A stretch of DNA of 57,777 nucleotides, taken from positions 318,740 to 376,516 of the forward strand of contig JAYPJF010000001.1 of the NCBI GenBank assembly GCA_038128225.1, written 5' to 3'. The notes beneath the pieces are model-generated. The model worked only from the letters and a program-made list of their open reading frames with translations, was not told the origin of the DNA and ran no database searches. The DNA comes from a bacterium (GTDB lineage: Bacteria > Patescibacteriota > Minisyncoccia > Phycocordibacterales > UBA2100). The number at the start of each line of letters is the position of its first letter. The stretch's first letter is position 1. Both the position numbers and the translations under genes were made by a program. Positions 3,136 to 15,232 of this stretch are shown in pieces.

Positions 3136-4050
3136 ATGATCATCGTTGCGTATCGTCGTGTTTTCTTCAGCATTACCGCAATCATGGTGGCGCTCGCCCT
3201 TGGTGCGCTTCTTGTGTTTGGATTGCCGCTCGGCATTGATTTTACCGGAGGGACCTTGCTCGAAGTTTCGTACACAGGCGAGAAGCCGGCAATAGAAGAA
3301 GTGCAAAACACGCTTACCTCACTCGGAATGGAGCATGTACAAGTACGCACACAGGGGACAGACACGTATAGCATCAAGGCGGGAACAATCACGGAAGAAA
3401 TGCGTGCCGCGCTTCCTGAAGCGCTTACCTTTAATGGTCAGCATGCGGGAGTCATCGGACGATTCACTGAAATAGGGCCGACGATTGGAAACGAATTGCG
3501 CAGTAAAGCGCTTGTAGCACTTATAGCGGTACTTGTCGCGATCATGCTTTTCATTGCTTTTGCGTTTCGAAAAGTGTCGCGACCAGTTTCTTCCTGGGTG
3601 TATGGCTTGGTTGCAGTGGTAACACTTGCGCACGACGTTATTGTCCCACTTGGTTTCTTTGCGATACTCGGCCATTTCTTTGGTGCTCAGGCAGACACGC
3701 TTTTTGTAACCGCGATGCTCACGGTCTTAGGGTTTTCGGTGCACGATACCATCGTGGTGTTTGATCGAGTGCGTGAGAATCTACGCATCAACCACGAGCA
3801 TAATCGCCACGAGAGCTTTGAGATTATTGCGGGCAAGAGCTTGAACCAAACATTTGTGCGTTCGGTCAACACATCGCTTACCGTTTTGATTACACTACTT
3901 ACGCTTTTCTTCCTTGGTCCGGAATCAACGCAGGACTTCGCGCTTGTGCTGTTGGTGGGTATTTTTGCAGGAACCTATTCGTCGATCGCGCTTGCGACGC
4001 CGCTTCTGGTTGCATGGGAACGTGCACAACAAAATAAAAACTCCAAGTAA
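3136..4050 (+). CDS. secF: Protein translocase subunit SecF
   Basis: GIDFTGGT, IGPTIGNEL, LAHDVI, GFSVHDTIVVFDRVREN, RSVNTSLT, GTYSSI; directly follows secD. Confidence 0.97.
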   Translation: MIIVAYRRVFFSITAIMVALALGALLVFGLPLGIDFTGGTLLEVSYTGEKPAIEEVQNTLTSLGMEHVQVRTQGTDTYSIKAGTITEEMRAALPEALTFNGQHAGVIGRFTEIGPTIGNELRSKALVALIAVLVAIMLFIAFAFRKVSRPVSSWVYGLVAVVTLAHDVIVPLGFFAILGHFFGAQADTLFVTAMLTVLGFSVHDTIVVFDRVRENLRINHEHNRHESFEIIAGKSLNQTFVRSVNTSLTVLITLLTLFFLGPESTQDFALVLLVGIFAGTYSSIALATPLLVAWERAQQNKNSK

Positions 4051-4265: not shown

Positions 4266-5945
4266 TCTTTTGTTCCGTCCAAAAAACACAAAAAAGAAAT
4301 CGAAGTGTCTTTAGACACTTCTCATCTTAGCTAAGAGTTTGATCCTAGCTCAGGGTGAACGCTGGCGGTATGGATAAGGCATGCAAGTCGAGTGGGTTTA
4401 GACCCACGGCAGACGAGGTAGGAACACGTAGGAACGTACCCAGAAGTCGGGCATAATCGGTCGAAAGGCCGGATAATTCCCGATGGTCCCGCAAGGGTAA
4501 AGATTTATCGCTTCTGGAGCGGCCTGCGTAGCATCAGCTAGTTGGTAGGGTAATGGCCTACCAAGGCAATGACGCTTAGGGGAGCTGAGAGGCTGACCCC
4601 CACCGATGGAACTGAGATACGGTCCTTACTCCTACGGGAGGCCGCAGTCGAGAATCTTCCGCAATGGACGAAAGTCTGACGGAGCGATACCGCGTGATGG
4701 ATGAAGTGCTTCGGTACGTAAACATCTTTTATAGAGGAGGAAGTCATTGACGTTACTCTATGAATAAGGGGCTCCTAACTCTGTGCCAGCAGGAGCGGTA
4801 ATACAGAGGCCCCAAGCGTTACCCGGAATTACTGGGCGTAAAGGGTGTGTCGGCGGTCATATTAGTCGCTTGTTAAAGCCCGGGGCTTAACTCCGGAATC
4901 GCGGGCGAAACGGTATGACTCGAGGGCGCGAGAGGTGAATGGAACTCATGGTGTAGGGGTGAAATCCGTTGATATCATGGGGAACACCAAATGCGAAGGC
5001 AATTCACTGGCGCGTTTCTGACGCTCAAACACGAAAGCGTGGGTAGCGAACGGGATTAGATACCCCGGTAGTCCACGCCCTAAACAATCCTTGCTGGATT
5101 TGGGGAGTATCGACCCTCTCCGAGTCGAAGCTAACGCGTTAAGCAAGGCGCCTGGGTAGTACGGTCGCAAGACTAAAACTCAAAGGAATAGACGGGGGCT
5201 CGCACAAGCGGTGGAGCGCGTGGCTTAATTCGTAGGTAAGCGAAGAACCTTACCAGGACTAGAAATCCAGCTGCAGACCGATGAAAGTCGGGGGCCTTCG
5301 AGGGTGCTGGACAGGTGATGCATGGCTGTCGTCAGTTCGTGGTTTGAATTGTTCCCTTCAGTGGGGTAACGAACGCAACCCCTGTTGCCTGTTACAAGAG
5401 TCAGGCGAGACTGCCCCCTCACGGGGGAGGAAGGTGGGGATGACGCCAAGTCAGCATGTCCCTCTGACGTCCTGGGCTGCACGCGCGCTACAATCGCCGT
5501 TACAAAGGGGCGCTAAGGCGAAAGCCGGAGCAAATCCCAAAAAGCGGCGCCAATTCGGATTGAGGTCTGCAACTCGACCTCATGAAGCCGGAATCGCTAG
5601 TAATCGTGGGTCAGCACACCACGGTGAATACGTTCTCGAGCCTTGTACTCACCGCCCGTCAACTCAAGGGAGCCGGGAAGACCGGAAGATCTCGTCTATC
5701 GAGGTCCAGGGTAAGCTCGGTAACAGGGAGTAAGTCGTAACAAGGCACGGGTAGCGGAAGCTGCTCGTGGATTCATTCCAAAACGGAAACGTCCTACCGC
5801 ATTGCGGCTAGTGACGTACCGGTCGGTTTGTGTAGCTCAATTGACTACACAAGGGTGTCGTAGTGACCATAAACGCTACGTGACGCATGGGAAAGATCAT
5901 GTGACAGTCGGGAAAGACCGAAAGTGTTCTGGACGGAACAAAAGA
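4266..5945 (+). other. 16S precursor processing stem (leader/trailer helix)
   Basis: TCTTTTGTTCCGTCCA (4266-4281) is the exact reverse complement of TGGACGGAACAAAAGA (5930-5945). The helix extends via GTGCA/TGCAC (4260-4264/5949-5953). Confidence 0.85.
4327..5782 (+). rRNA. rrs: 16S ribosomal RNA (Parcubacteria-like; ends approximate)
   Basis: Conserved blocks AGAGTTTGATCCTAGCTCAG (4334), ACTCCTACGGGAGG, GTGCCAGCAGGAGCGGTAA, ATTAGATACCCCGGTAGTCC, AAACTCAAAGGAAT, AAGTCGTAACAAGG and helix 45 with a GGAA loop. No intron-sized insertion is evident. Confidence 0.98.
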
Positions 5946-5954
5946 GTGTGCACG

Positions 5955-5982
5955 AAAACACCCGACTTGCGCGGGTGTTTTT
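5955..5982 (+). terminator. Intrinsic terminator ending the 16S transcription unit
   Basis: AAAACACCCG-ACTTGCG-CGGGTGTTTT-T hairpin immediately after the processing stem. Confidence 0.8.
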
Positions 5983-6020
5983 GCTACGCGTTTTCAAAAA
6001 ATATAAAATACATTAGTAAC

Positions 6021-6049
6021 AAAAACGCCCGGCAGTTTCCTGCCGGGCG
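6021..6049 (-). terminator. Intrinsic terminator (minus strand)
   Basis: 10-bp stem CGCCCGGCAG/CTGCCGGGCG with a GAAA loop on the minus strand, followed by TTTTT; 22 nt downstream of the 6072-6257 ORF. Confidence 0.85.
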
Positions 6050-6071
6050 CATTCTATGGAGAAACCAGAGA

Positions 6072-6257
6072 CTAATTGCGCGGACGCGTGTCGATCTTGT
6101 TTCGCACCTGGATATTCTTTTCACTCTTGCGCCGATTACCCCGGTTCTTCCCCCTCGACCTCTTCGGGGCTTGGTAGTTGCCCTTCGGGTCAAAGAGGTG
6201 TTGAAACTCCTGAGCGGGTTTGCGGCGGTGACCGTTAGGCTCTCGGCTATTCTTCAC
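6072..6257 (-). CDS. Small, highly basic hypothetical protein (61 aa)
   Basis: GTG start preceded by AAGGAG, its own strong terminator, and an Arg/Lys/Asn-rich product. Confidence 0.55.
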   Translation of the reverse strand: MKNSREPNGHRRKPAQEFQHLFDPKGNYQAPKRSRGKNRGNRRKSEKNIQVRNKIDTRPRN

Positions 6258-6324
6258 CCGGGTCTCCTTATCTGATCGTACGCACTCCTTTGCGTACTAG
6301 TTGGACAGCATAGCAACTTCGTGT

Positions 6325-6353
6325 TTGTGTGCAAGCTGCTTTTTTGTTAGTAT
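6325..6353 (+). promoter_or_regulatory. Promoter for the nested tRNA-Ile locus
   Basis: TTGTGT (6325-6330), 17 nt, then extended -10 TG-T-TAGTAT (6345-6353). The predicted start at ~6360-6361 is 1-2 nt before the outer tRNA 5' end. Confidence 0.65.
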
Positions 6354-6361
6354 GCCCCAAC

Positions 6362-6628
6362 GCGCGTGTAGCTCAGGTGGTTAGAGCACGTCACTGATAT
6401 CTGCGATATATGCACGGCGGTCGAAGAAAATAAGAGTAGTATCTTTTTTGTAACGTACGTAGTTTCCTGCGTGCGCGTGTAGCTCAGGTGGTTAGAGCAC
6501 GTCACTGATAATGACGAGGCCGTAGGTTCGAGTCCTACCACGCGCACGCAGGACGGTACCTACTCTTACTTTACTTCTCGCTTGTGCATATAATGACGAG
6601 GCCGTAGGTTCGAGTCCTACCACGCGCA
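6362..6628 (+). tRNA. trnI: Outer tRNA-Ile(GAT), interrupted at about position 37/38 by a 193-nt insert (exons 6362-6399 and 6593-6628)
   Basis: The 5' half (38 nt) and 3' half (36 nt) are each identical to the corresponding half of the intact copy at 6473-6546. Joining them gives a perfect cloverleaf. Confidence 0.8.
6473..6546 (+). tRNA. trnI: Inner, intact tRNA-Ile(GAT), no encoded CCA
   Basis: GCGCGTG/CACGCGC acceptor stem, GCTC/GAGC D-stem, CGTCA-CTGATAA-TGACG anticodon arm, GTAGG-TTCGAGT-CCTAC T-arm, discriminator A. Confidence 0.96.
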
Positions 6629-6630
6629 CA

Positions 6631-7341
6631 TCAATGCCTTTTCTGCGCGTAAATTGAGATGCTGCGGCGTTTGTGCGGTTTACCTGCGCGCACGTGGCCA
6701 AATGATTTTTGTACTTTGTGAATGATGTACTGTGGTTCGAGTTCTGCAATGAGTGTATCTTCGTCAAACACGAATTCTTGCACTCCAAACTCAGGATGCA
6801 TATACGAATGCGGCTCATCTCCCGGGTAGTCTCGAAGTAAGCGGCTCGCGTGCGAATCTTCATCAAGCAAGAATGTTTTTAAGAACAACCATCCGTCTGG
6901 GCGCAACACACGAATAATTTCTGAGCGCAGCCTCTCGCGCTCCTGTGTTTTGAGAACATGTGATGCCATCATGTCGAGCGCAAACATCTGCGAGTGATCG
7001 GGGAGTGGTATCGGTTCACGCATTGAATATACATCAAATGCGATAGGGAGATCGCCAATGCCTTTACGCGCTTGTTTAATTGCTTCAACCGATGTGTCAT
7101 AACCGAGCCCTCGAACTCCATAGTTTTTTGAAAGCCATATGAGATTGCGGCCATTGCCACAGCCAATATCTACCGCTTGCGCTAACGGATTAAGATACTT
7201 GCGCCCATACTCACGCTCCATCCAGCGGCAAAACTTTTGCAGGTCTTCGCTCGCGTCTCCAGAAAGATCGAGATACTCGGCGCGCGCGTATTCTTTATCC
7301 CAAAATTGTGTCCCGCGCTTCTTACGAGGCCTTCCTTGCAT
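6631..7341 (-). CDS. Class I SAM-dependent methyltransferase
   Basis: Motif I AVDIGCGNGRN, GYDTS and LRPDGWLFL. Start placed at MQGRP (7341); the upstream TTG/ATG alternatives are possible. Confidence 0.85.
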   Translation of the reverse strand: MQGRPRKKRGTQFWDKEYARAEYLDLSGDASEDLQKFCRWMEREYGRKYLNPLAQAVDIGCGNGRNLIWLSKNYGVRGLGYDTSVEAIKQARKGIGDLPIAFDVYSMREPIPLPDHSQMFALDMMASHVLKTQERERLRSEIIRVLRPDGWLFLKTFLLDEDSHASRLLRDYPGDEPHSYMHPEFGVQEFVFDEDTLIAELEPQYIIHKVQKSFGHVRAGKPHKRRSISIYAQKRH

Positions 7342-7400
7342 GACAGCCATTACAGCGCAAAAATCGTTGAAATGCAAAGGAAAAGTGGTTGTGGAAAAAG

Positions 7401-8609: not shown

Positions 8610-8691
8610 GGGCATGTGGCGGAATTGGTATACGCGTGCGTCTCAGAAGCGCATTCCGAAAGGATTGGGAGTTCAAGTCTCCCCATGCCCA
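8610..8691 (+). tRNA. trnL: tRNA-Leu(CAG), no encoded CCA
   Basis: GGGCATG/CATGCCC acceptor stem, TGCGT-CTCAGAA-GCGCA anticodon arm, long variable arm TCCGAAAGGA, GGGAG-TTCAAGT-CTCCC T-arm. Confidence 0.95.
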
Positions 8692-8693
8692 CT

Positions 8694-9989
8694 ATGAACT
8701 ATCGTGATGCCTTCGCACGTAAAAACATCACCGTTATGGGGCTTGGTGTTCTGGGACGCGGTGTAGGTGATGCGGAATTTCTCGCTGAATGTGGCGCCCA
8801 TGTGTTAGTGACTGATTTAAAGTCAACTGATGCACTGAAGGAATCGGTTCGCCGCCTTGCGAAGTATAAAAACGTTTCGTTTGTACTCGGAGAACATCGG
8901 GAGAAAGATTTTAAGAATGCAGACATGGTTTTGAAAGCGGCTGGAGTGCCGCTTGATTCTCCGTATATTGCAATTGCGCAAGCGCATCATACCCCTGTCG
9001 TTATGAGCAGCGCGCTTTTTACAATACTTACAAAAGCGTACGTCGTTGGAGTGACGGGCACGCGAGGAAAGTCGACGGTCACCCATATGATTCATCATGG
9101 GCTTGCACAAATGGGCAGACCTGCGTTTTTGGGCGGGAATGTTCGAGGCATCTCAACGTTGGCAATGCTTCCAGAGACAAAAAAAGGTGATTATGCGGTG
9201 CTTGAACTCGATTCGTGGCAACTTCAGGGATTCGGGGATCTAAAAATTAGTCCGCACCTTGCAATATTCACCAATTTTATGCCAGATCATCTAAACTACT
9301 ATTCGGACACCACATCTTATTTTAATGACAAAGCCAACATTTTTAGGTTTCAAAAAAGCGGGGGGCATTTACTCGCAAGCCAGACTGTTGTCGATCGTAT
9401 ACGGACACAGCGGCCACCAGTGTGGCCACGTGTTCCAGAGCCGATTCCGGACGAATGGCAGTTGAAGATTCGCGGTGCACATAATCGCGAAAATGCAGCG
9501 CTCGCTGCGGAGGCGCTGCGAGTGCTTGGGCTTAGTGAAGAGAGTGTTAGGGGGACGCTTGAGACATTCGCAGGTATTCCTGGGCGGCTCGAGTTTGTGC
9601 GCGAACTTAATGGTGTCTCGATCTATAATGATTCAAACGCAACAACACCTGATGCAACTATTGCAGGCCTCCGCGCGTTCCCTGAAGGGAGGATTATTCT
9701 TATTGCGGGGGGCGCTGACAAGAGTATTCCAGTACAAGGATTATGTTCCGAAATAATGACGCGCACTAAGCGGTTGATACTGGTTGAGGGAACAGGGACA
9801 CACCGGCTTTCAGAAGAATTCGCTGGGGCTCCGGTTCACAATTCAATTGAACGAGCTCTTGCTGATGCGCTGGGGCATGCAAAAAGCGGCGACACGATTC
9901 TTTTCAGCCCTGCTTTCGCGTCGTTTGGGATGTTTAAAAACGAATATGATCGAAGTGACCAGTTTACGGCAGAAGTTCGCGCGCTCTAA
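8694..9989 (+). CDS. murD: UDP-N-acetylmuramoyl-L-alanine--D-glutamate ligase
   Basis: VMGLGVLG, GVTGTRGKST, LGGN, ELDSWQL, DHLNYY, YNDSNATT, LIAGG.DK, LFSPAFASF..F.N..DR...F. Start corrected to the ATG at 8694 because the longer ORF runs through the tRNA. Confidence 0.95.
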   Translation: MNYRDAFARKNITVMGLGVLGRGVGDAEFLAECGAHVLVTDLKSTDALKESVRRLAKYKNVSFVLGEHREKDFKNADMVLKAAGVPLDSPYIAIAQAHHTPVVMSSALFTILTKAYVVGVTGTRGKSTVTHMIHHGLAQMGRPAFLGGNVRGISTLAMLPETKKGDYAVLELDSWQLQGFGDLKISPHLAIFTNFMPDHLNYYSDTTSYFNDKANIFRFQKSGGHLLASQTVVDRIRTQRPPVWPRVPEPIPDEWQLKIRGAHNRENAALAAEALRVLGLSEESVRGTLETFAGIPGRLEFVRELNGVSIYNDSNATTPDATIAGLRAFPEGRIILIAGGADKSIPVQGLCSEIMTRTKRLILVEGTGTHRLSEEFAGAPVHNSIERALADALGHAKSGDTILFSPAFASFGMFKNEYDRSDQFTAEVRAL

Positions 9990-11324: not shown

Positions 11325-12012
11325 TATCGGCACCCTGTATGTGGTGGGAACGCCGATTGGGAACCTTGAAGACATTACACTGCGTGCGCTGCGCACTCTT
11401 AAAGAATGCGATGTGATTTTTTGTGAGGACACTCGGGTAACGGCGAAGCTCCTGACACGGTACAATATTGAAAAACCTTTGGTGCGCTGTGATGAAAAAC
11501 AAGAACTCGTGGCTAGTAAAAAAGCGATCGCGTTACTTACTGAGGGAAAATCGGTTGCGCTTGTCTCCGATGCGGGCACTCCGGGTATTTCCGACCCAGG
11601 TTCGCGATTAGTGTCTGAACTGCGACGTACGCTCGGTAGCGCATTCCCCATCATTCCTATTCCGGGACCTTCTGCAGTTGCGGCAGCGCTCTCTGTTTCG
11701 GGAGTGGATACGCGAGAATTTGTTTTCTTAGGTTTTCTGCCTCACAAAAAAGGTCGGCAAACTGCTCTGAAAGAGATTGCCGCATCATCGCATACAGTCG
11801 TTTTATACGAATCGCCGCATCGGATTCTCAAATTGTGTCGGGAGCTTTCTGAGCAAATTGGTGATCGAATAGTTGTTGTGTTGCGGGAACTTACAAAATC
11901 ATTCGAAAGTACGTACGTGGGAACACTTGCCGATATAAGCTCACGTCTTGAAGAAGAACATCATGATCGTGGGGAATTTGTCGTGGTTGTACCCTCTGGC
12001 AAGGGACGTTAA
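11317..12012 (+). CDS. rsmI: 16S rRNA (cytidine1402-2'-O)-methyltransferase
   Basis: LYVVGTPIGNLEDITLRAL, CEDTR, LVSDAGTPGISDPG, PGPSA, YESPHR, RELTK, GEFVV. Confidence 0.96.
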   Translation: MSNIGTLYVVGTPIGNLEDITLRALRTLKECDVIFCEDTRVTAKLLTRYNIEKPLVRCDEKQELVASKKAIALLTEGKSVALVSDAGTPGISDPGSRLVSELRRTLGSAFPIIPIPGPSAVAAALSVSGVDTREFVFLGFLPHKKGRQTALKEIAASSHTVVLYESPHRILKLCRELSEQIGDRIVVVLRELTKSFESTYVGTLADISSRLEEEHHDRGEFVVVVPSGKGR

Positions 12013-12031: not shown

Positions 12032-12226
12032 ATGACGAAGGACGTACTCATCATGCTCGCAGGTCTTCTAGTCGCATTCCTCCCATTCTTGGGTTTTCCT
12101 AATGCGTGGGATCAATGGATTTTATTAGGATTAGGCGTCGCCATCATTGCGCTCGGCGTTGCCGTGCGCCGCAGTAGGCGACGGGCGCCGCTTCAGGTGG
12201 CTACGCAGCATGAAGAAACACACTAA
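12032..12226 (+). CDS. Small two-helix membrane protein (hypothetical)
   Basis: Two hydrophobic segments (LPFLGFP...W) and a basic tail. TACACT -10 lies 7 nt before the ATG. Confidence 0.65.
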   Translation: MTKDVLIMLAGLLVAFLPFLGFPNAWDQWILLGLGVAIIALGVAVRRSRRRAPLQVATQHEETH

Positions 12227-13433
12227 GCGAACGTACTCGTTTGCGCTTGGAAGTGGGCTCGCCGTCACCATACTTGGTCTTCTTGCCCCCACGCTCATGC
12301 CGCACCTTTTTGCGCTCGATGTTTCCTATGATCGTGGAGGAGTGGCGACAACCACCGAACGTGTGACTCCAACAGTTGAGCACCTGGCTACGCCGCAGGC
12401 GGTAAAGGCAGTGTATCTTTCACAATGTGGCGCGAGTTCCGAGACGTTGCGTACAAGCGTTTTGAAGCTTGCTGAGGAAACAGAAGTTAACGCGATCGTA
12501 CTTGATTTAAAAGACTACACGGGGACCGTGAGTTTTCCATCTGAGACCGCAGTGTCTGGTGGTAAGGGATGTACGATCTCTGATTTTCGCGCATTGGTAA
12601 AACATATGCACGAGCAGGGGATTTATGTGATCGGGCGCCTCACCGTATTTCAAGACCCGCTTTATACTAAAACATATCCTGAACGTGCTGTGCAGCGCAC
12701 AGGCGGAGGAGTGTGGCACGATTATAAGGGACTTGCGTTTGTTGATGTTGGAGCACGCCCATTTTGGGACTACATTGTGACCCTTGCAAAAGAAGCGCAC
12801 GCACTTGGGGTTGATGAGATAAACTTTGATTACATTCGATACCCTTCCGACGGGCCTATGAAAGAAGCAGTGTACACACACTCGCAAGGTGCACATGCTG
12901 ATAACGTAGAGCGCTTCTTCCAATATCTTTCTCAAGAGATACGCGTGTCACAAGGCGGGCATCAGCCGGTTACATCTGCGGATTTGTTTGGCATGACGAC
13001 GACGAACACCGACGATTTGAATATCGGGCAAGTACTCGAGCGCGCGCTTCCGTATTTCGACTATATTGCACCAATGGTGTATCCGTCTCATTATCCGAAA
13101 GGCTTTAATGGGTGGGATAATCCAAACCAGCACGTCTATGACATCATCGAATTTTCGATGACACGCGCGGTTACGCGAGCGCAAGCGACTACCACAAAAG
13201 TGTTTTCATTTGCGCATGAGCGTATTGGTACGTCAACGCCTGCACTCTACAAAAAACAGGTGTATAAACCGAATGTGTTACGGCCTTGGATCCAAGATTT
13301 TGACTACGGGGGAGAGTATGGAGCTAAAGAAGTGCGTGATCAAATTCAAGCCGCGTACGACTCAGGACTAAACTCGTGGCTTATCTGGTCTCCCTCGAAT
13401 CGCTATACGCGAGAGGCACTGCTTCCAAACTAG
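12210..13433 (+). CDS. Putative glycoside hydrolase (DUF4015-like TIM barrel) with N-terminal membrane anchor
   Basis: VNAIVLDLKD, GRLTVFQDP, GVDEINFDYIRYP, SADLFG, PMVYPSHY, RPWIQDF. Confidence 0.8.
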   Translation: MKKHTKRTYSFALGSGLAVTILGLLAPTLMPHLFALDVSYDRGGVATTTERVTPTVEHLATPQAVKAVYLSQCGASSETLRTSVLKLAEETEVNAIVLDLKDYTGTVSFPSETAVSGGKGCTISDFRALVKHMHEQGIYVIGRLTVFQDPLYTKTYPERAVQRTGGGVWHDYKGLAFVDVGARPFWDYIVTLAKEAHALGVDEINFDYIRYPSDGPMKEAVYTHSQGAHADNVERFFQYLSQEIRVSQGGHQPVTSADLFGMTTTNTDDLNIGQVLERALPYFDYIAPMVYPSHYPKGFNGWDNPNQHVYDIIEFSMTRAVTRAQATTTKVFSFAHERIGTSTPALYKKQVYKPNVLRPWIQDFDYGGEYGAKEVRDQIQAAYDSGLNSWLIWSPSNRYTREALLPN

Positions 13434-13453
13434 CTTCGCGTTATACTACACGC

Positions 13454-15232
13454 ATGACGTGGTCGTATGACCCAGAAAAAATAACGTATTTTGCTGCAAC
13501 GCATACACGTGGGCAGCATCGCGCGTTTGGAATTCGTGCGAAAGATCGTACGAAGCATATGTATGTCATCGGAAAAACGGGTATGGGTAAATCAACCATG
13601 CTCGAAAATCTAGCGATTCAAGATATCCAAAACGGCGAAGGGGTATGCTTTATCGATCCGCACGGGTCGACTGCAGAAAAACTCCTTGATTTTATACCGC
13701 AAGAGCGCATCAAAGACGTGGTTTATTTTGCCCCGTTTGATACAGAGTACCCAATCGGTTTTAACGTGATGGAAGACGTGGGTTATGACAATCGGCACCT
13801 TGTGGTCTCAGGGCTCATGGGCGTGTTTGAGCGGTTGTGGGCAGATGCTTGGAGCGCGCGCATGTCATACATTTTACAGAACACATTGTATGCACTTTTG
13901 GAGTATCCCAACGCTACATTACTTGACGTGAATGCGATGCTCACCAATAAAACATTTCGCGAAGACGTGGTGAATCATATTACCGATCCAGTGGTTGAAC
14001 AGTTTTGGAAAGGAGAATTCGCAAGCTACACCGACCGCTACACGCAAGAAGCAACTCCTGCTATCCAAAACAAGATAGGGCAGCTGACCAACAACCCGCT
14101 TATTAGAAATATCCTTGGGCAGACCGAATCCTCGATCAACATCCGGGAAATGATGGATGCGCGGAAGATTTTTATTGTTAACCTTTCAAAAGGACGAATG
14201 GGAGAGAGTAATTCTGCACTTCTCGGCGCAATGCTCGTGGTGAAGATCTACTTGTCTGCGATGAGTCGAGCAAGCGAGACCGCCCAGCGGCAAGCGCAAC
14301 TCCCACCATTTTATTTTTACGTTGACGAATTCCAATCGGTGGTAAACGAAGCGTTCGCGAACATTCTCTCAGAGTCTCGAAAGTACAAGCTCGCATTAAT
14401 TGTGGCAAACCAATACATCACGCAGATGGATGAAACGGTACGCGACGCTGTTTTCGGCAACGTCGGCACGTTCATTGCGTTTCGCGTAGGCCCAATTGAT
14501 GCAGAATTTATTGAGGTTATGTTTAAGCCGACGTTTGAAGCGCAGGATTTAGTAAACCTTGGGTTGGGCGCCACATATCTTACGCTCATGATCGACGGCG
14601 TGGGGTCACAGCCATTTTCTGCACAAACACTCCCGCCGATTGAATCTCCTGGGACCACGTATCGCGACGACATTATCGAAGCGTCTCGTTCTCGGTACGC
14701 AAAACCTCGCAAAACAATTGAGGAGCATGTTAATGCACGAGTGCGTAAATGGCTTACTGCTGAAAAAGATGCGCACAAAGTACGCAGTTCGGCTGGTCAA
14801 AAGAATGGAAAACCCGGTGGAAACGGTACTCAAGGTTTTCGACCATCGTTCAGTAAGCCAGAGGTGACGCATGAGGCGCCCAAGCCTCAACCGGTACAAG
14901 CGCGCCCGCCTGTCCAAGAGCGACAAGAACGAGAAGTACCAGTACAGAGAAGGGAAGAGACGCCCCGCGAAGCACCTCGATCACCGATAGAAACACTTCG
15001 TGCGAAACAAACAGATCGACACGTACAACAGCCGCAGAAACCCGATGTGCGCAACGCGCTCAAGGATGCTATCCTTGCCGCGCAAAGAAACAAATCGGAA
15101 CAGAGGAATAATACTGTGCAACCAGAAAAGACGGAGCCGCATTCTTCCCAAGAAAAAAAACACAGCCCACCGACCAGTGACGCTGATGAAATAGACCCAA
15201 AAGAGTTGCGAAAACTCTTGTATGAAGAGTAA
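13454..15232 (+). CDS. VirD4/TraD/TrwB-like (DUF87/HerA-related) P-loop ATPase with low-complexity C-terminus
   Basis: Walker A GKTGMGKS, FIDPHG, Walker B YVDEFQ, LSESRKY, ANQYITQ, FGNVGT. Confidence 0.85.
   Translation: MTWSYDPEKITYFAATHTRGQHRAFGIRAKDRTKHMYVIGKTGMGKSTMLENLAIQDIQNGEGVCFIDPHGSTAEKLLDFIPQERIKDVVYFAPFDTEYPIGFNVMEDVGYDNRHLVVSGLMGVFERLWADAWSARMSYILQNTLYALLEYPNATLLDVNAMLTNKTFREDVVNHITDPVVEQFWKGEFASYTDRYTQEATPAIQNKIGQLTNNPLIRNILGQTESSINIREMMDARKIFIVNLSKGRMGESNSALLGAMLVVKIYLSAMSRASETAQRQAQLPPFYFYVDEFQSVVNEAFANILSESRKYKLALIVANQYITQMDETVRDAVFGNVGTFIAFRVGPIDAEFIEVMFKPTFEAQDLVNLGLGATYLTLMIDGVGSQPFSAQTLPPIESPGTTYRDDIIEASRSRYAKPRKTIEEHVNARVRKWLTAEKDAHKVRSSAGQKNGKPGGNGTQGFRPSFSKPEVTHEAPKPQPVQARPPVQERQEREVPVQRREETPREAPRSPIETLRAKQTDRHVQQPQKPDVRNALKDAILAAQRNKSEQRNNTVQPEKTEPHSSQEKKHSPPTSDADEIDPKELRKLLYEE

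What the first reader, a model, noticed from the sequence alone, without database searches (positions are those of the whole stretch)
6400..6592. The two insert arms pair into a long rod that presents the inner tRNA at its tip
Seen in sequence: TATATGCAC (6407-6415) pairs with GTGCATATA (6584-6592) as a perfect 9 bp ending exactly at the 3' junction. GGCGG..GAAG pairs with CTTC.TCGCT, AAA with TTT, TAAGAGTAG (6431-6439) with CTACTCTTA (6560-6568), and TATC with GGTA. TCCTGCGT (6465-6472) pairs with ACGCAGGA (6546-6553), extending the inner acceptor stem by 8 bp. Long-range complementarity between X and Y, with G-U pairs and bulges, argues for a selected RNA structure and against a random assembly join. 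Inference: if RNase P and a 3' nuclease excise the inner tRNA, the outer halves stay clamped by the rod, resembling the complementary-flank split tRNAs of Nanoarchaeum equitans.
Basis: partly seen in the sequence, partly recalled or inferred. Interest (0 to 1): 0.75.

Follow-up and report, generated by a model that had tools for sequence, protein, structure and literature searches.

The report
Working tRNA nested inside its split copy
In this tiny-genome (candidate phyla radiation) bacterium, the working isoleucine tRNA gene sits at the tip of a roughly 42-base-pair stem inside the anticodon loop of a second, identical but broken copy of itself; the layout is real and undescribed in the papers I searched, but the stem looks like the product of an inverted DNA duplication, and selection on it as an RNA is not shown.

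Summary
**Observation: confirmed.** Arms X (6400-6472) and Y (6547-6592) pair far better than chance (-45.3 kcal/mol against -21.0 ± 3.8 in 2000 shuffles).

**Not an assembly artefact.** Assembly graphs from at least four independent metagenomes give exactly the nested path. Unique parts have single depth and the repeated halves have double depth.

**What it is.**
- Only the outer 5' half has the lineage's tRNA promoter motif. The inner tRNA-Ile(GAU) must therefore be transcribed through outer half plus X.
- The closest relative in hand (L034, 16S 92-96% identical) has the same trailer Y. It also has a decayed outer 3' half at the identical offset (+48), but no X and no outer 5' half.
- X matches the reverse complement of (discriminator + Y) at 41 of 45 aligned bases.
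- Best reading: a fold-back template switch, or an equivalent inverted duplication, created X and the outer 5' half. The stem then acts as a leader-trailer helix.

**Not supported.**
- The G-U argument for RNA-level selection: the minus strand folds equally well.
- The Nanoarchaeum analogy: no bulge-helix-bulge motif is possible.

**Context.** Partial tRNA-Ile copies in nested order recur in other candidate phyla radiation loci.

The parts
4327..5782 (+). 16S rRNA gene upstream on the same strand (context). No 23S gene follows it in the window.
   Evidence: Rfam SSU_rRNA_bacteria, 1354 bits.
6340..6353 (+). T-run plus extended -10 motif (TTTTTTGTTAGTAT), ending 8 nt before the outer 5' half. 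This is the likely promoter of the whole unit.
   Evidence: TGnTAnnnT lies in the 40 nt upstream of the gene in 17 of 34 related tRNA-Ile loci; about 0.03 matches per locus are expected by chance. The window's outer copy has it at -17, and arm X has none.
6362..6399 (+). Outer 5' half of tRNA-Ile (acceptor 5' strand, D arm, anticodon stem 5' strand, loop up to A37).
   Evidence: 38/38 identical to 6473-6510 (repeat D2). Its 5' flank resembles the 5' flank of the L034 gene (p 0.07).
6400..6406 (+). Seven unpaired bases (TCTGCGA) between the outer half and the rod.
   Evidence: Unpaired in the minimum-free-energy fold. No counterpart in the reverse complement of Y.
6407..6443 (+). Rod, 5' arm (part of X).
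   Evidence: Pairs with 6555-6592. Aligns with the reverse complement of Y.
6444..6464 (+). X-only bulge with a T-run (the repeat CTTTTTTGT at 6443-6451, then AACGTAC). It may be a decayed promoter or a later insertion.
   Evidence: Absent from the reverse complement of Y. CTTTTTTGT also occurs at 6339-6347 (repeat D4; X against U p 0.04). No TGnTAnnnT match.
6465..6472 (+). 5' strand of the 8-bp extension of the inner acceptor stem.
   Evidence: Pairs with 6546-6553.
6473..6546 (+). Complete inner tRNA-Ile(GAU), the working gene. CCA is not encoded.
   Evidence: ARAGORN. Rfam tRNA, 74.5 bits.
6547..6592 (+). Arm Y. It is the native 3' trailer of the tRNA and forms the 3' strand of the rod.
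   Evidence: Pairs with X. Aligns ungapped and in register with the trailer of the closest relative L034 (18/30, p 9e-5).
6590..6629 (+). Outer 3' half of tRNA-Ile (from A35 of the anticodon to one base past the discriminator).
   Evidence: 40/40 identical to 6508-6547 (repeat D1). L034 has a decayed copy (28/35) whose TGACG starts at the same offset, +48 after A73.
6631..7377 (-). Convergent SAM-dependent methyltransferase gene. Its stop codon abuts the outer 3' half, so it bounds the unit.
   Evidence: Pfam Methyltransf_25/11. Homologues found.

Best explanation
**What it is.**
This is a genuine nested tRNA-Ile(GAU) locus. The inner copy is the working gene. The outer copy is the original gene at its native place: its own promoter lies upstream and its native downstream flank follows it. 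It is split in the anticodon loop and is not spliced back together.

**How it arose (inferred).**
1. An ancestor already carried tRNA - trailer Y - second 3' half. The closest relative L034 still shows this state.
2. During replication the nascent strand stalled in the anticodon loop (...CTGATA).
3. It paired with the other strand at the junction of Y and the outer 3' half, through the anticodon-stem complement CGTCA:TGACG plus ATA:TAT.
4. It copied Y backwards, through the discriminator and into the 3' acceptor strand. The complement of that strand is the tRNA's own first seven bases.
5. It then switched back and copied the tRNA again.
6. One such event yields outer 5' half - reverse complement of Y - tRNA - Y - outer 3' half.
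7. On this reading the rod is a consequence of origin.

**How it works (inferred).**
- Transcription from the outer promoter runs through the outer half and X. The rod therefore forms as a leader-trailer helix around the inner tRNA.
- The most likely maturation route is the one used for rRNA. RNase III, which candidate phyla radiation bacteria retain, opens the rod. RNase P and 3' trimming plus CCA addition then finish the inner tRNA.
- The two outer fragments remain as a base-paired by-product.
For: **Shown.**
- The nested order is real and fixed in independent metagenomes.
- Only the outer copy has the lineage's tRNA promoter motif.
- L034 (16S 92-96% identical) is collinear with tRNA - Y - 3' half - downstream flank. 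Y is conserved in register (p 9e-5). Its relic 3' half starts at the same +48 offset. It lacks X and the outer 5' half.
- X matches the reverse complement of (A73 + Y) at 41 of 45 aligned bases. X is unlike the tRNA and unlike L034's 5' flank.
- The inverted repeat ends exactly at the two places where the tRNA gene is self-complementary. Its inner end is continuous with the acceptor stem and includes the discriminator. Its outer end is at the ATA of the outer 3' half.
- Both strands fold equally well.
- No intron chemistry fits: no bulge-helix-bulge, and no group I or group II intron match at E <= 1.
- No copies of X or Y elsewhere in the window, and no matches to the arms in the phage records (only the tRNA body matched); the tRNA's anticodon-arm 25-mer has no match in viral contigs.

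**From the literature.** Candidate phyla radiation bacteria keep rnc (RNase III), rnj and pnp (PMC12641178).

**Context.** Partial tRNA-Ile copies occur only in nested order (heads upstream, tails downstream). They appear at z >= 4.5 in about a third of the 38 related loci, and no wrong-side control (head downstream, tail upstream) reaches that score.
Against: - X carries 7 extra bases at its outer end and about 20 extra in the middle. A clean template switch does not predict these.
- The outer 3' half is 40/40 identical to the inner one, while L034's has decayed to 28/35 with gaps. If the 3' duplication is ancestral, something in this lineage has kept the copy intact, either gene conversion or selection. 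A pure-relic reading does not explain that.
- Both strain SNPs in the arms (6428 A>G, 6553 A>G) turn A-U into G-U. This is what selection on RNA pairing would allow.
- L034 could equally have lost outer half + X by deletion between the 38-bp direct repeats. The whole nest would then be older, and the 91% arm identity against 60% Y divergence would be evidence of selection.
- Head copies in other loci (L009, L010) are not accompanied by flank complementarity, so template switching is not a general explanation.
- There are no RNA data for this organism.
Confidence: 0.45

Rival explanations
1. The nest is an old, selected RNA architecture. The outer tRNA shell (acceptor stem, D arm and T arm) plus the rod act as a natural 'tRNA scaffold'. 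They define and protect the precursor's ends and route the only tRNA-Ile(GAU) through an RNase III-dependent maturation step. L034 lost the outer 5' half and X by deletion between the direct repeats, after which its outer 3' half decayed.
For: - The outer 3' half is perfectly conserved in the window, while L034's unpartnered relic has decayed.
- The arms are 91% complementary, although Y has diverged to 60% between the two lineages.
- Both arm SNPs preserve pairing.
- The insert is fixed in every population sampled, despite 38-bp and 40-bp direct repeats that should favour deletion.
- 3' modules of other lineages show compensatory changes: L049 against L054, three pairs in one hairpin.
- Earlier scan notes report conserved helix-embedded, nested tRNA-Ile genes in other genomes. 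These are leads only.
Against: - No homologue with X is available, so there is no covariation for this rod.
- There is no strand asymmetry in folding.
- Equilibrium folding prefers the nested register even when Y is shuffled, so the rod is not needed to prevent mispairing.
- Only 3 of 33 distinct related loci show significant flank complementarity.
- The paired leader and paired discriminator should hinder RNase P and RNase Z rather than help them.
Confidence: 0.3
2. X-tRNA-Y is a small mobile or horizontally acquired cassette: a promoter relic, a tRNA and a trailer bounded by about 37-bp imperfect terminal inverted repeats. It inserted into the anticodon loop of the resident tRNA-Ile gene, with a 3-bp ATA target duplication, and replaced the function it destroyed.
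For: - Inverted-repeat arms flank the tRNA.
- ATA is present at both junctions.
- X contains a T-run like the lineage's tRNA promoters.
- In L006-type loci the relic 3' half is closer to another lineage's tRNA-Ile (26/31) than to the resident one (23/31). This hints that resident genes can be replaced by incoming copies.
- tRNA anticodon loops are classic integration sites (established knowledge: Williams 2002, Nucleic Acids Res).
Against: - The inner and outer copies are 100% identical, so the donor would have to be the same species.
- Y is the native trailer shared with L034, which lacks X.
- The left repeat starts 7 nt inside the junction.
- There are no other copies in the 57.8-kb window, none in the phage records or viral contigs searched, and no recombinase gene nearby.
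Confidence: 0.12
3. The outer tRNA is functional. The insert is removed as an intron, or the clamped halves act as a split tRNA, as in Nanoarchaeum equitans.
For: - The insert lies at the canonical 37/38 intron position.
- The outer halves are intact and would stay paired.
Against: - No bulge-helix-bulge motif is possible.
- There is no group I or group II intron core, and the insert is only 193 nt.
- Bacteria are not known to have the archaeal splicing endonuclease.
- An identical working tRNA sits inside, so there is no need for the outer one.
- Without ligation the anticodon loop stays open, with a 42-bp rod attached.
Confidence: 0.03
4. Assembly artefact or chimeric join.
For: Short repeats of this kind break short-read assemblies. 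The Logan contigs end at the repeats.
Against: The same unitig graph, with 1x and 2x depths, appears in at least four independent samples from different habitats and studies.
Confidence: 0.01

Closest known systems
Leader-trailer (RNase III processing) helices flanking 16S and 23S rRNA in bacterial rrn operons (Young & Steitz 1978; PMC11404451)
   Same: A long imperfect helix is formed by sequences 5' and 3' of a mature stable RNA. It presents that RNA at its tip and is continuous with the RNA's own terminal helix. The enzyme (rnc) is retained in candidate phyla radiation bacteria (PMC12641178).
   Different: It encloses a 74-nt tRNA, not an rRNA. It sits inside the anticodon loop of a second copy of the same tRNA. 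Cleavage is untested, and no covariation is available for this instance.
Partial tRNA duplications at attachment sites of integrase-borne elements (Williams 2002, Nucleic Acids Res; own knowledge)
   Same: There is a direct repeat of the tRNA's 3' part beginning in the anticodon loop, lying downstream of an intact gene. The displaced original half keeps the native downstream flank.
   Different: Only 45 nt lie between the repeats, with no integrase and no cargo. The 5' half is duplicated as well, in mirror fashion. The two spacers are complementary to each other.
Quasi-palindrome template-switch mutagenesis and fold-back inverted duplication (Ripley 1982; Dutra & Lovett 2006; own knowledge)
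   Same: A new sequence equals the reverse complement of a nearby sequence. Its ends coincide with pre-existing short inverted repeats, here the acceptor and anticodon stems. The process turns an imperfect palindrome into a longer one.
   Different: Known cases change a few bases to tens of bases. Here the event would also have duplicated 38 nt of a tRNA gene and produced a viable nested gene. Extra bases in X are unexplained.
Disrupted tRNA genes of archaea and red algae: intron-containing, split (Nanoarchaeum equitans) and permuted (Cyanidioschyzon merolae) (PMC4390854, PMC3978253)
   Same: The gene is interrupted at position 37/38, and complementary sequences hold the two halves together.
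   Different: There is no bulge-helix-bulge motif. The host is bacterial. The interrupting sequence contains a complete identical tRNA. There is no evidence or need for ligation.
Engineered 'tRNA scaffold' for expressing recombinant RNA (Ponchon & Dardel 2007, Nat Methods; own knowledge)
   Same: A structured RNA is grafted as a stem extension into the anticodon arm of a tRNA. The tRNA's acceptor, D and T arms give tRNA-like end processing and stability.
   Different: That is man-made. Here the cargo is itself a tRNA that must be released, and function of the shell is not shown.
RtT repeats behind E. coli tyrT (Rfam RF00391; own knowledge, and the lead from scan note e1-1555320)
   Same: These are non-coding structured units behind a tRNA gene that end in a copy of that tRNA's 3' end. 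The 3' modules seen here in L001, L049 and L054 have the same design.
   Different: The window's unit duplicates both halves from the anticodon loop and nests the gene. There was no Rfam RtT match.

Membership tests
Archaeal-type tRNA intron / Nanoarchaeum-type split tRNA | Bulge-helix-bulge motif (two bulges of about 3 nt separated by a 4-bp helix) at the exon-insert junctions. | tested here: not met
   Enumeration of bulges of 2-4 nt, a 4-bp central helix and offsets 0-2 around 6394-6400 / 6587-6593 found no candidate.
Archaeal-type tRNA intron / Nanoarchaeum-type split tRNA | Splicing endonuclease (EndA) and ligase (RtcB) encoded by the organism. | not testable with these tools
Archaeal-type tRNA intron / Nanoarchaeum-type split tRNA | Halves encoded at separate loci, each with its own promoter. 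| tested here: not met
   Both halves lie within 268 nt on one strand, with a single promoter motif upstream.
Bacterial group I intron in a tRNA anticodon loop | Group I catalytic core (P3-P9). | tested here: not met
   No Intron_gpI match at E <= 1 in 5700-6750, and the insert is only 193 nt. The same model does find an intron in the 16S gene of L001.
Leader-trailer processing helix (rRNA type) | Long complementarity between the 5' and 3' flanks, enclosing the mature RNA. | tested here: met
   42 bp; -45.3 kcal/mol; z -6.4; pairing probability 0.97.
Leader-trailer processing helix (rRNA type) | The 5' arm is part of the transcript. | tested here: inconclusive
   The promoter motif occurs only upstream of the outer half, which implies read-through of X. 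No RNA data exist.
Leader-trailer processing helix (rRNA type) | Compensatory changes among homologues. | tested here: inconclusive
   No homologue with X among 46 fetched loci plus neighbours found through the methyltransferase gene. There are two strain SNPs, and both turn A-U into G-U.
Leader-trailer processing helix (rRNA type) | Cleavage by RNase III. | not testable with these tools
   This needs an RNA end map or an enzyme assay. The literature says only that rnc is retained in candidate phyla radiation bacteria.
Integrase att-site duplication at a tRNA gene | Direct repeat of the tRNA 3' part, starting in the anticodon loop or T loop. | tested here: met
   40-nt repeat from A35. The same layout, decayed, is present in L034.
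Integrase att-site duplication at a tRNA gene | Element DNA (integrase gene, cargo) between the repeats. | tested here: not met
   Only 42-45 nt lie between the repeats. The neighbouring genes are housekeeping genes.
Inverted-repeat transposon or MITE | Terminal inverted repeats at the very ends, plus a target-site duplication. | tested here: inconclusive
   The right arm ends at the junction, but the left arm starts 7 nt inside it. The ATA at both junctions could be a 3-bp duplication or a microhomology.
Inverted-repeat transposon or MITE | Multiple copies in the genome or in relatives. | tested here: not met
   No other copy of X or Y in the window or in the flanks of the related tRNA-Ile loci fetched up to (L001-L046), and no arm match in the phage records. 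A 33-mer of X has no exact match in genome contigs. The rest of the genome could not be searched.
Fold-back template-switch (inverted duplication) product | The new arm equals the reverse complement of a neighbouring pre-existing sequence. | tested here: met
   X against the reverse complement of (A73 + Y): 41 of 45 aligned bases identical. Y is the pre-existing part, because it is shared with L034.
Fold-back template-switch (inverted duplication) product | Switch points lie at pre-existing complementary sequences. | tested here: met
   The inner end is continuous with the acceptor stem. The outer end lies at ATA, next to the anticodon-stem complement.
Fold-back template-switch (inverted duplication) product | No material that lacks a template. 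| tested here: not met
   7 nt (6400-6406) and about 20 nt (6444-6464) of X have no counterpart in Y.

The most novel reading that the evidence does not exclude
Parcubacteria-type bacteria mature their single tRNA-Ile(GAU) from a purpose-built precursor. An outer, split copy of the tRNA serves as a natural tRNA scaffold. A co-evolving leader-trailer rod makes release of the inner tRNA depend on RNase III, as for rRNA. A stable two-piece tRNA-like RNA is left behind. The nest is kept intact by selection or by gene conversion, and it decays only when one outer half is lost, as in L034.
Probability: 0.25. Interest if true: 0.85.

Novelty: new variant of a known kind. Interest (0 to 1): 0.62.

Why it matters
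- **A gene layout not found in the literature.** A tRNA gene nested in the anticodon loop of its own copy is not described in the papers I could search.
- **An essential gene can survive this.** An essential single-copy tRNA gene can be rebuilt inside itself and still work.
- **A concrete route from simple to nested.** tRNA genes are bundles of short inverted repeats. In small genomes with reduced repair capacity they may seed template switches that leave heads, tails and stems around them.
- **If the stem is functional.** tRNA maturation in these bacteria would then borrow the logic of rRNA processing, and nature would have anticipated the laboratory 'tRNA scaffold'.
- **Practical consequences.**
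  - tRNA finders report only the inner gene.
  - Short-read assemblers break at these repeats.
  - The duplicated halves can be mistaken for integration scars.

Tried and rejected
- **Whole-genome search.** I could not look for further copies of X/Y, other nested tRNAs, or the genes rnc, rnz, rtcB or endA.
- **Exact 33-mer of X in genome contigs.** No hit.
- **RNA evidence.** The RNA runs hold only the tRNA bodies of other organisms. None holds X or Y.
- **Relatives through the neighbouring methyltransferase.**
  - The nearest homologue is only 57-60% identical.
  - Of the six relatives' methyltransferases looked up (P0002, P0004, P0008, P0011, P0012, P0019), only P0002's locus (L049/L050) held a complete tRNA-Ile and P0004's contig (L054) ended inside one.
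  - None of them had X.
- **X and Y as decayed tRNA copies.** Rejected (p >= 0.29).
- **X as homologue of L034's 5' flank.** Rejected (p 0.93). An 11-mer shared between X and L034's trailer is at chance level in the full search (E 0.96). It is explained by Y's homology plus X:Y complementarity.
- **A relic 3' half in L022.** Not significant (p 0.48).
- **An 'outer head' GGGCGC in L006-type loci.** Rejected. It belongs to an upstream terminator hairpin, and L038 breaks the match.
- **The rod as a clamp against mispairing of the duplicated halves.** Not supported at equilibrium. Crossed pairings have probability 0.00 even with Y shuffled.
- **Phage or mobile origin.** Phage records match only the tRNA body, and a viral-contig scan found nothing.
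- **Generic sigma-70 scan.** It does not call the promoter, because there is no -35 element. The call rests on the motif shared by relatives.
- **tRNA-Leu in the window.** It has no partial copies.
Full report
**1. What is in the sequence**

Downstream of a 16S rRNA gene (4327-5782) lies one complete tRNA-Ile(GAU) at 6473-6546 (ARAGORN; Rfam 74.5 bits).

- Its first 38 nt recur at 6362-6399 and its last 40 nt recur at 6590-6629, both 100% identical.
- The layout is therefore: outer 5' half (A) - X (6400-6472) - complete tRNA - Y (6547-6592) - outer 3' half (B).
- The outer halves share the bases ATA (anticodon positions 35-37), so the junction is ambiguous by 3 nt.
- The break lies at the canonical 37/38 position of the anticodon loop.

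**2. The rod**

- There are about 42 pairs, including two perfect 9-bp blocks.
- An 8-bp block continues the inner acceptor stem and pairs the discriminator A6546 with U6472.
- There are 3 G-U pairs, 1 A-C mismatch, four small bulges and one 21-nt bulge found only in X (6444-6464).
- The X:Y duplex energy is -45.3 kcal/mol, against -21.0 ± 3.8 in 2000 dinucleotide shuffles. None reached it.
- In the partition function of 6362-6629 the rod has probability 0.97, and both acceptor stems are at or above 0.95.

**3. It is real DNA**

- Logan unitigs from runs of four studies (freshwater, estuary, wastewater and a named organism) break exactly at the two repeats.
- Together they contain the pieces 6200-6391, 6370-6502, 6481-6537, 6518-6619 and 6600-6800.
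- The unique pieces have single depth. The 38-mer and 40-mer have roughly double depth.
- The only walk that uses each unique piece once is the nested one.
- X and Y are as deep as the flanks, so the insert is fixed. Further runs hold it too.
- Strain differences in the arms are 6428 A>G and 6553 A>G. Both face a U and give G-U.

**4. Who owns it**

- The closest hit in the genome collection to the tRNA half is a Candidatus Taylorbacteria genome assembled from a metagenome.
- Homologues of the neighbouring methyltransferase are named Patescibacteria, Parcubacteria or Kaiserbacteria. The nearest non-self homologue is only 57-60% identical.
- The species has no close sequenced relative. The best one in hand is L034, a groundwater contig whose 16S is 92-96% identical. 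Other loci are 82-85% identical.

**5. Transcription**

- In 17 of 34 related tRNA-Ile loci a T-run plus TGnTAnnnT lies in the 40 nt upstream of the gene. About 0.03 matches per locus are expected by chance.
- In the window the motif (TGTTAGTAT) ends 8 nt before the outer 5' half. X has only a T-run with a spoiled hexamer.
- In the other loci with upstream 'head' copies (L009, L010, L001), a promoter-like hexamer likewise precedes the outermost head.
- The inference is that the inner tRNA is read through the outer half and X, so the 5' arm of the rod is in the RNA.
- No RNA data for this organism exist in the runs I could reach.

**6. The key comparison**

L034 aligns collinearly with the window from the inner tRNA onward.

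- The tRNA is 96% identical.
- The trailer is homologous to Y in ungapped register (18/30, p 9e-5).
- A decayed 3' half follows (28/35 identical, three gap columns). Its TGACG begins 48 nt after the discriminator, exactly as in the window.
- After that comes a similar downstream flank.
- L034 has no X and no outer 5' half. Its promoter sits directly before the gene.
- L034's 5' flank resembles the window's outer flank U (p 0.07) and not X (p 0.93).
- So tRNA - Y - second 3' half is older than the two lineages. The outer halves occupy the native position, and X plus the outer 5' half is the extra piece.

**7. Origin of X**

- X is not a decayed tRNA.
- X matches the reverse complement of (A73 + Y) at 41 of 45 aligned bases. 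It has 7 extra nt at its outer end and about 20 extra in the middle.
- The inverted repeat stops exactly where the tRNA gene is already self-complementary.
  - Its inner end runs straight into the acceptor stem.
  - Its outer end is the ATA next to TGACG of the outer 3' half.

One fold-back template switch on an L034-like ancestor accounts for this:
1. The nascent strand ends at ...CGTCACTGATA.
2. It pairs with the other strand at the junction of Y and the outer 3' half (CGTCA:TGACG plus ATA:TAT).
3. It copies Y backwards through A73 and the 3' acceptor strand. This writes GCGCGTG, the tRNA's own first seven bases.
4. It returns to the normal template there and copies the tRNA again.

The product is A - reverse complement of Y - tRNA - Y - B. 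This explains the seamless 8-bp extension, the rod ending at the 3' junction, and both breaks lying at the same ATA. It is an inference. The extra bases in X are not explained by it.

**8. Is the rod selected as RNA?**

Not shown.

- The minus strand folds as well as the plus strand (-45.9 against -45.3).
- Transition differences between the arms give 3 G-U and 1 A-C on the plus strand. With the two SNPs this becomes 5 to 1 (p about 0.11).
- At equilibrium the nested register wins even when Y is shuffled. The rod is therefore not needed to stop the duplicated halves from mispairing.

Three facts keep the selection reading open:
- The outer 3' half is perfect in the window but decayed in L034.
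- The arms are 91% complementary, although Y differs by 40% between lineages.
- The nest is fixed in all populations, despite direct repeats that invite deletion.

If L034 lost A-X secondarily, all three facts point to selection or continual gene conversion.

**9. What it is not**

- Not an archaeal-type intron: no bulge-helix-bulge can be drawn.
- Not a ribozyme intron: no group I or group II intron core in a permissive Rfam scan.
- Not a detectable mobile element:
  - There is no second copy of X or Y in the window or in related loci.
  - The phage records match only the tRNA body.
  - The tRNA's anticodon-arm pattern has no match in viral contigs.
  - No recombinase gene lies nearby.
- The Nanoarchaeum comparison holds only in that the excised halves would stay paired (cofold -71.7 against -45.6 kcal/mol apart).

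**10. Wider pattern**

- Among 38 distinct tRNA-Ile loci, copies of the first 12 nt lie upstream in 4. Copies of the last 13 nt lie downstream in 3. All six control searches (wrong side or wrong strand) found none.
- With a more sensitive alignment, tails downstream reach z >= 4.5 in 9 loci and heads upstream in 4. No control reaches that.
- L001 (Taylorbacteria) has its own nest, broken in the D and T arms.
- L049 and L054 share a 170-nt 3' module that ends in the tRNA's tail. It has an arm complementary to the tRNA's own T loop and three compensatory pairs in one hairpin.
- Earlier notes of this scan describe similar nests and tail-capped modules in other genomes, and behind tRNA-Gly in this genome. 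I treated them as leads. My own loci agree with the pattern, but I could not test their covariation claims for this rod.

**11. Verdict**

- The working gene is the inner tRNA. The outer copy is a split shell at the native site.
- The rod is an inverted repeat, most simply explained by its origin. It would act as a leader-trailer helix in the precursor.
- Candidate phyla radiation bacteria retain RNase III (PMC12641178), which makes rRNA-like processing the most likely route. This is inferred, not shown.
- I found no description of a tRNA gene nested in its own copy.

Noticed in passing
window 5761-5790: The 16S 3' tail reads GGAUUCAUUCCAA where the consensus has GGAUCACCUCCUU, so the anti-Shine-Dalgarno CCUCC is missing. 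L034's 16S ends the same way (GGAAUCAUUCCAA).
   Followed up: partly
L034 (groundwater contig; 16S at 12149-13983, minus strand): The closest relative's 16S gene carries an insertion of about 1.1 kb at the place matching window position ~5062 (16S base 736). It has a second interruption near its 3' end, with a group II intron domain match at 11817-11889.
   Followed up: no
L001 6243-6739 (Candidatus Taylorbacteria MHRX01000018.1; also L008, L014): This locus has its own nested tRNA-Ile. A degenerate head with its 5' flank lies 181 nt upstream. The intact gene is at 6436-6509. The T loop to 3' end plus 80 nt of trailer is repeated 149 nt downstream at 96% identity. The trailer contains AGGACTCGAA, complementary to the tRNA's T loop. 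The 16S gene of this locus holds a group I intron.
   Followed up: partly
L049 5370-5537 (minus strand) and L054 8345-8511 (minus strand): A module of about 170 nt follows tRNA-Ile and ends in a copy of the tRNA's last 9-14 nt. It contains CTAGGGGTCGAA, complementary to that tRNA's own T loop and stem. One hairpin differs between the two loci by three compensatory pairs (CAACAGTC/GACTGTTG against TCATAGTC/GACTATGA).
   Followed up: partly
L009 2837-3036 and L010 (oriented) 3802-4000: Two or three copies of the tRNA-Ile head (nt 1-13, then a degenerate D arm) lie upstream of the intact gene. The promoter motif precedes the outermost head. There is no tail copy and no flank complementarity.
   Followed up: partly
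L006, L028, L036, L038: 45-85 nt downstream of tRNA-Ile: A relic 3' half (GAGGTCGAAGGTCCGATTCCTTCTGCGCCCA) keeps a well-paired T stem through a compensatory change. It is closer to the tRNA-Ile of another lineage (26/31) than to the resident gene (23/31). This hints that resident genes have been replaced by incoming copies.
   Followed up: partly
window 6340-6353, and the 40 nt upstream of tRNA-Ile in L001-L049: There is a shared promoter signature for stand-alone tRNA-Ile genes in these bacteria: a T-run followed by TGnTAnnnT, with no recognisable -35 element. It is present in 17 of 34 loci.
   Followed up: yes
window 6629-6633 and 8691-8694: Packing is extremely tight. The stop codon of the convergent methyltransferase gene lies one base after the outer tRNA half. 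The murD reading frame begins inside or immediately after tRNA-Leu(CAG).
   Followed up: no
window 6012-6073: An 11-bp GC-rich hairpin followed by a T-run lies on the minus strand (6025-6050), in the 16S-tRNA spacer. It overlaps a sub-threshold Rfam match (STnc310, 31.5 bits). Bases 5783-5844 and 5930-5950 of the spacer are conserved in L034.
   Followed up: no
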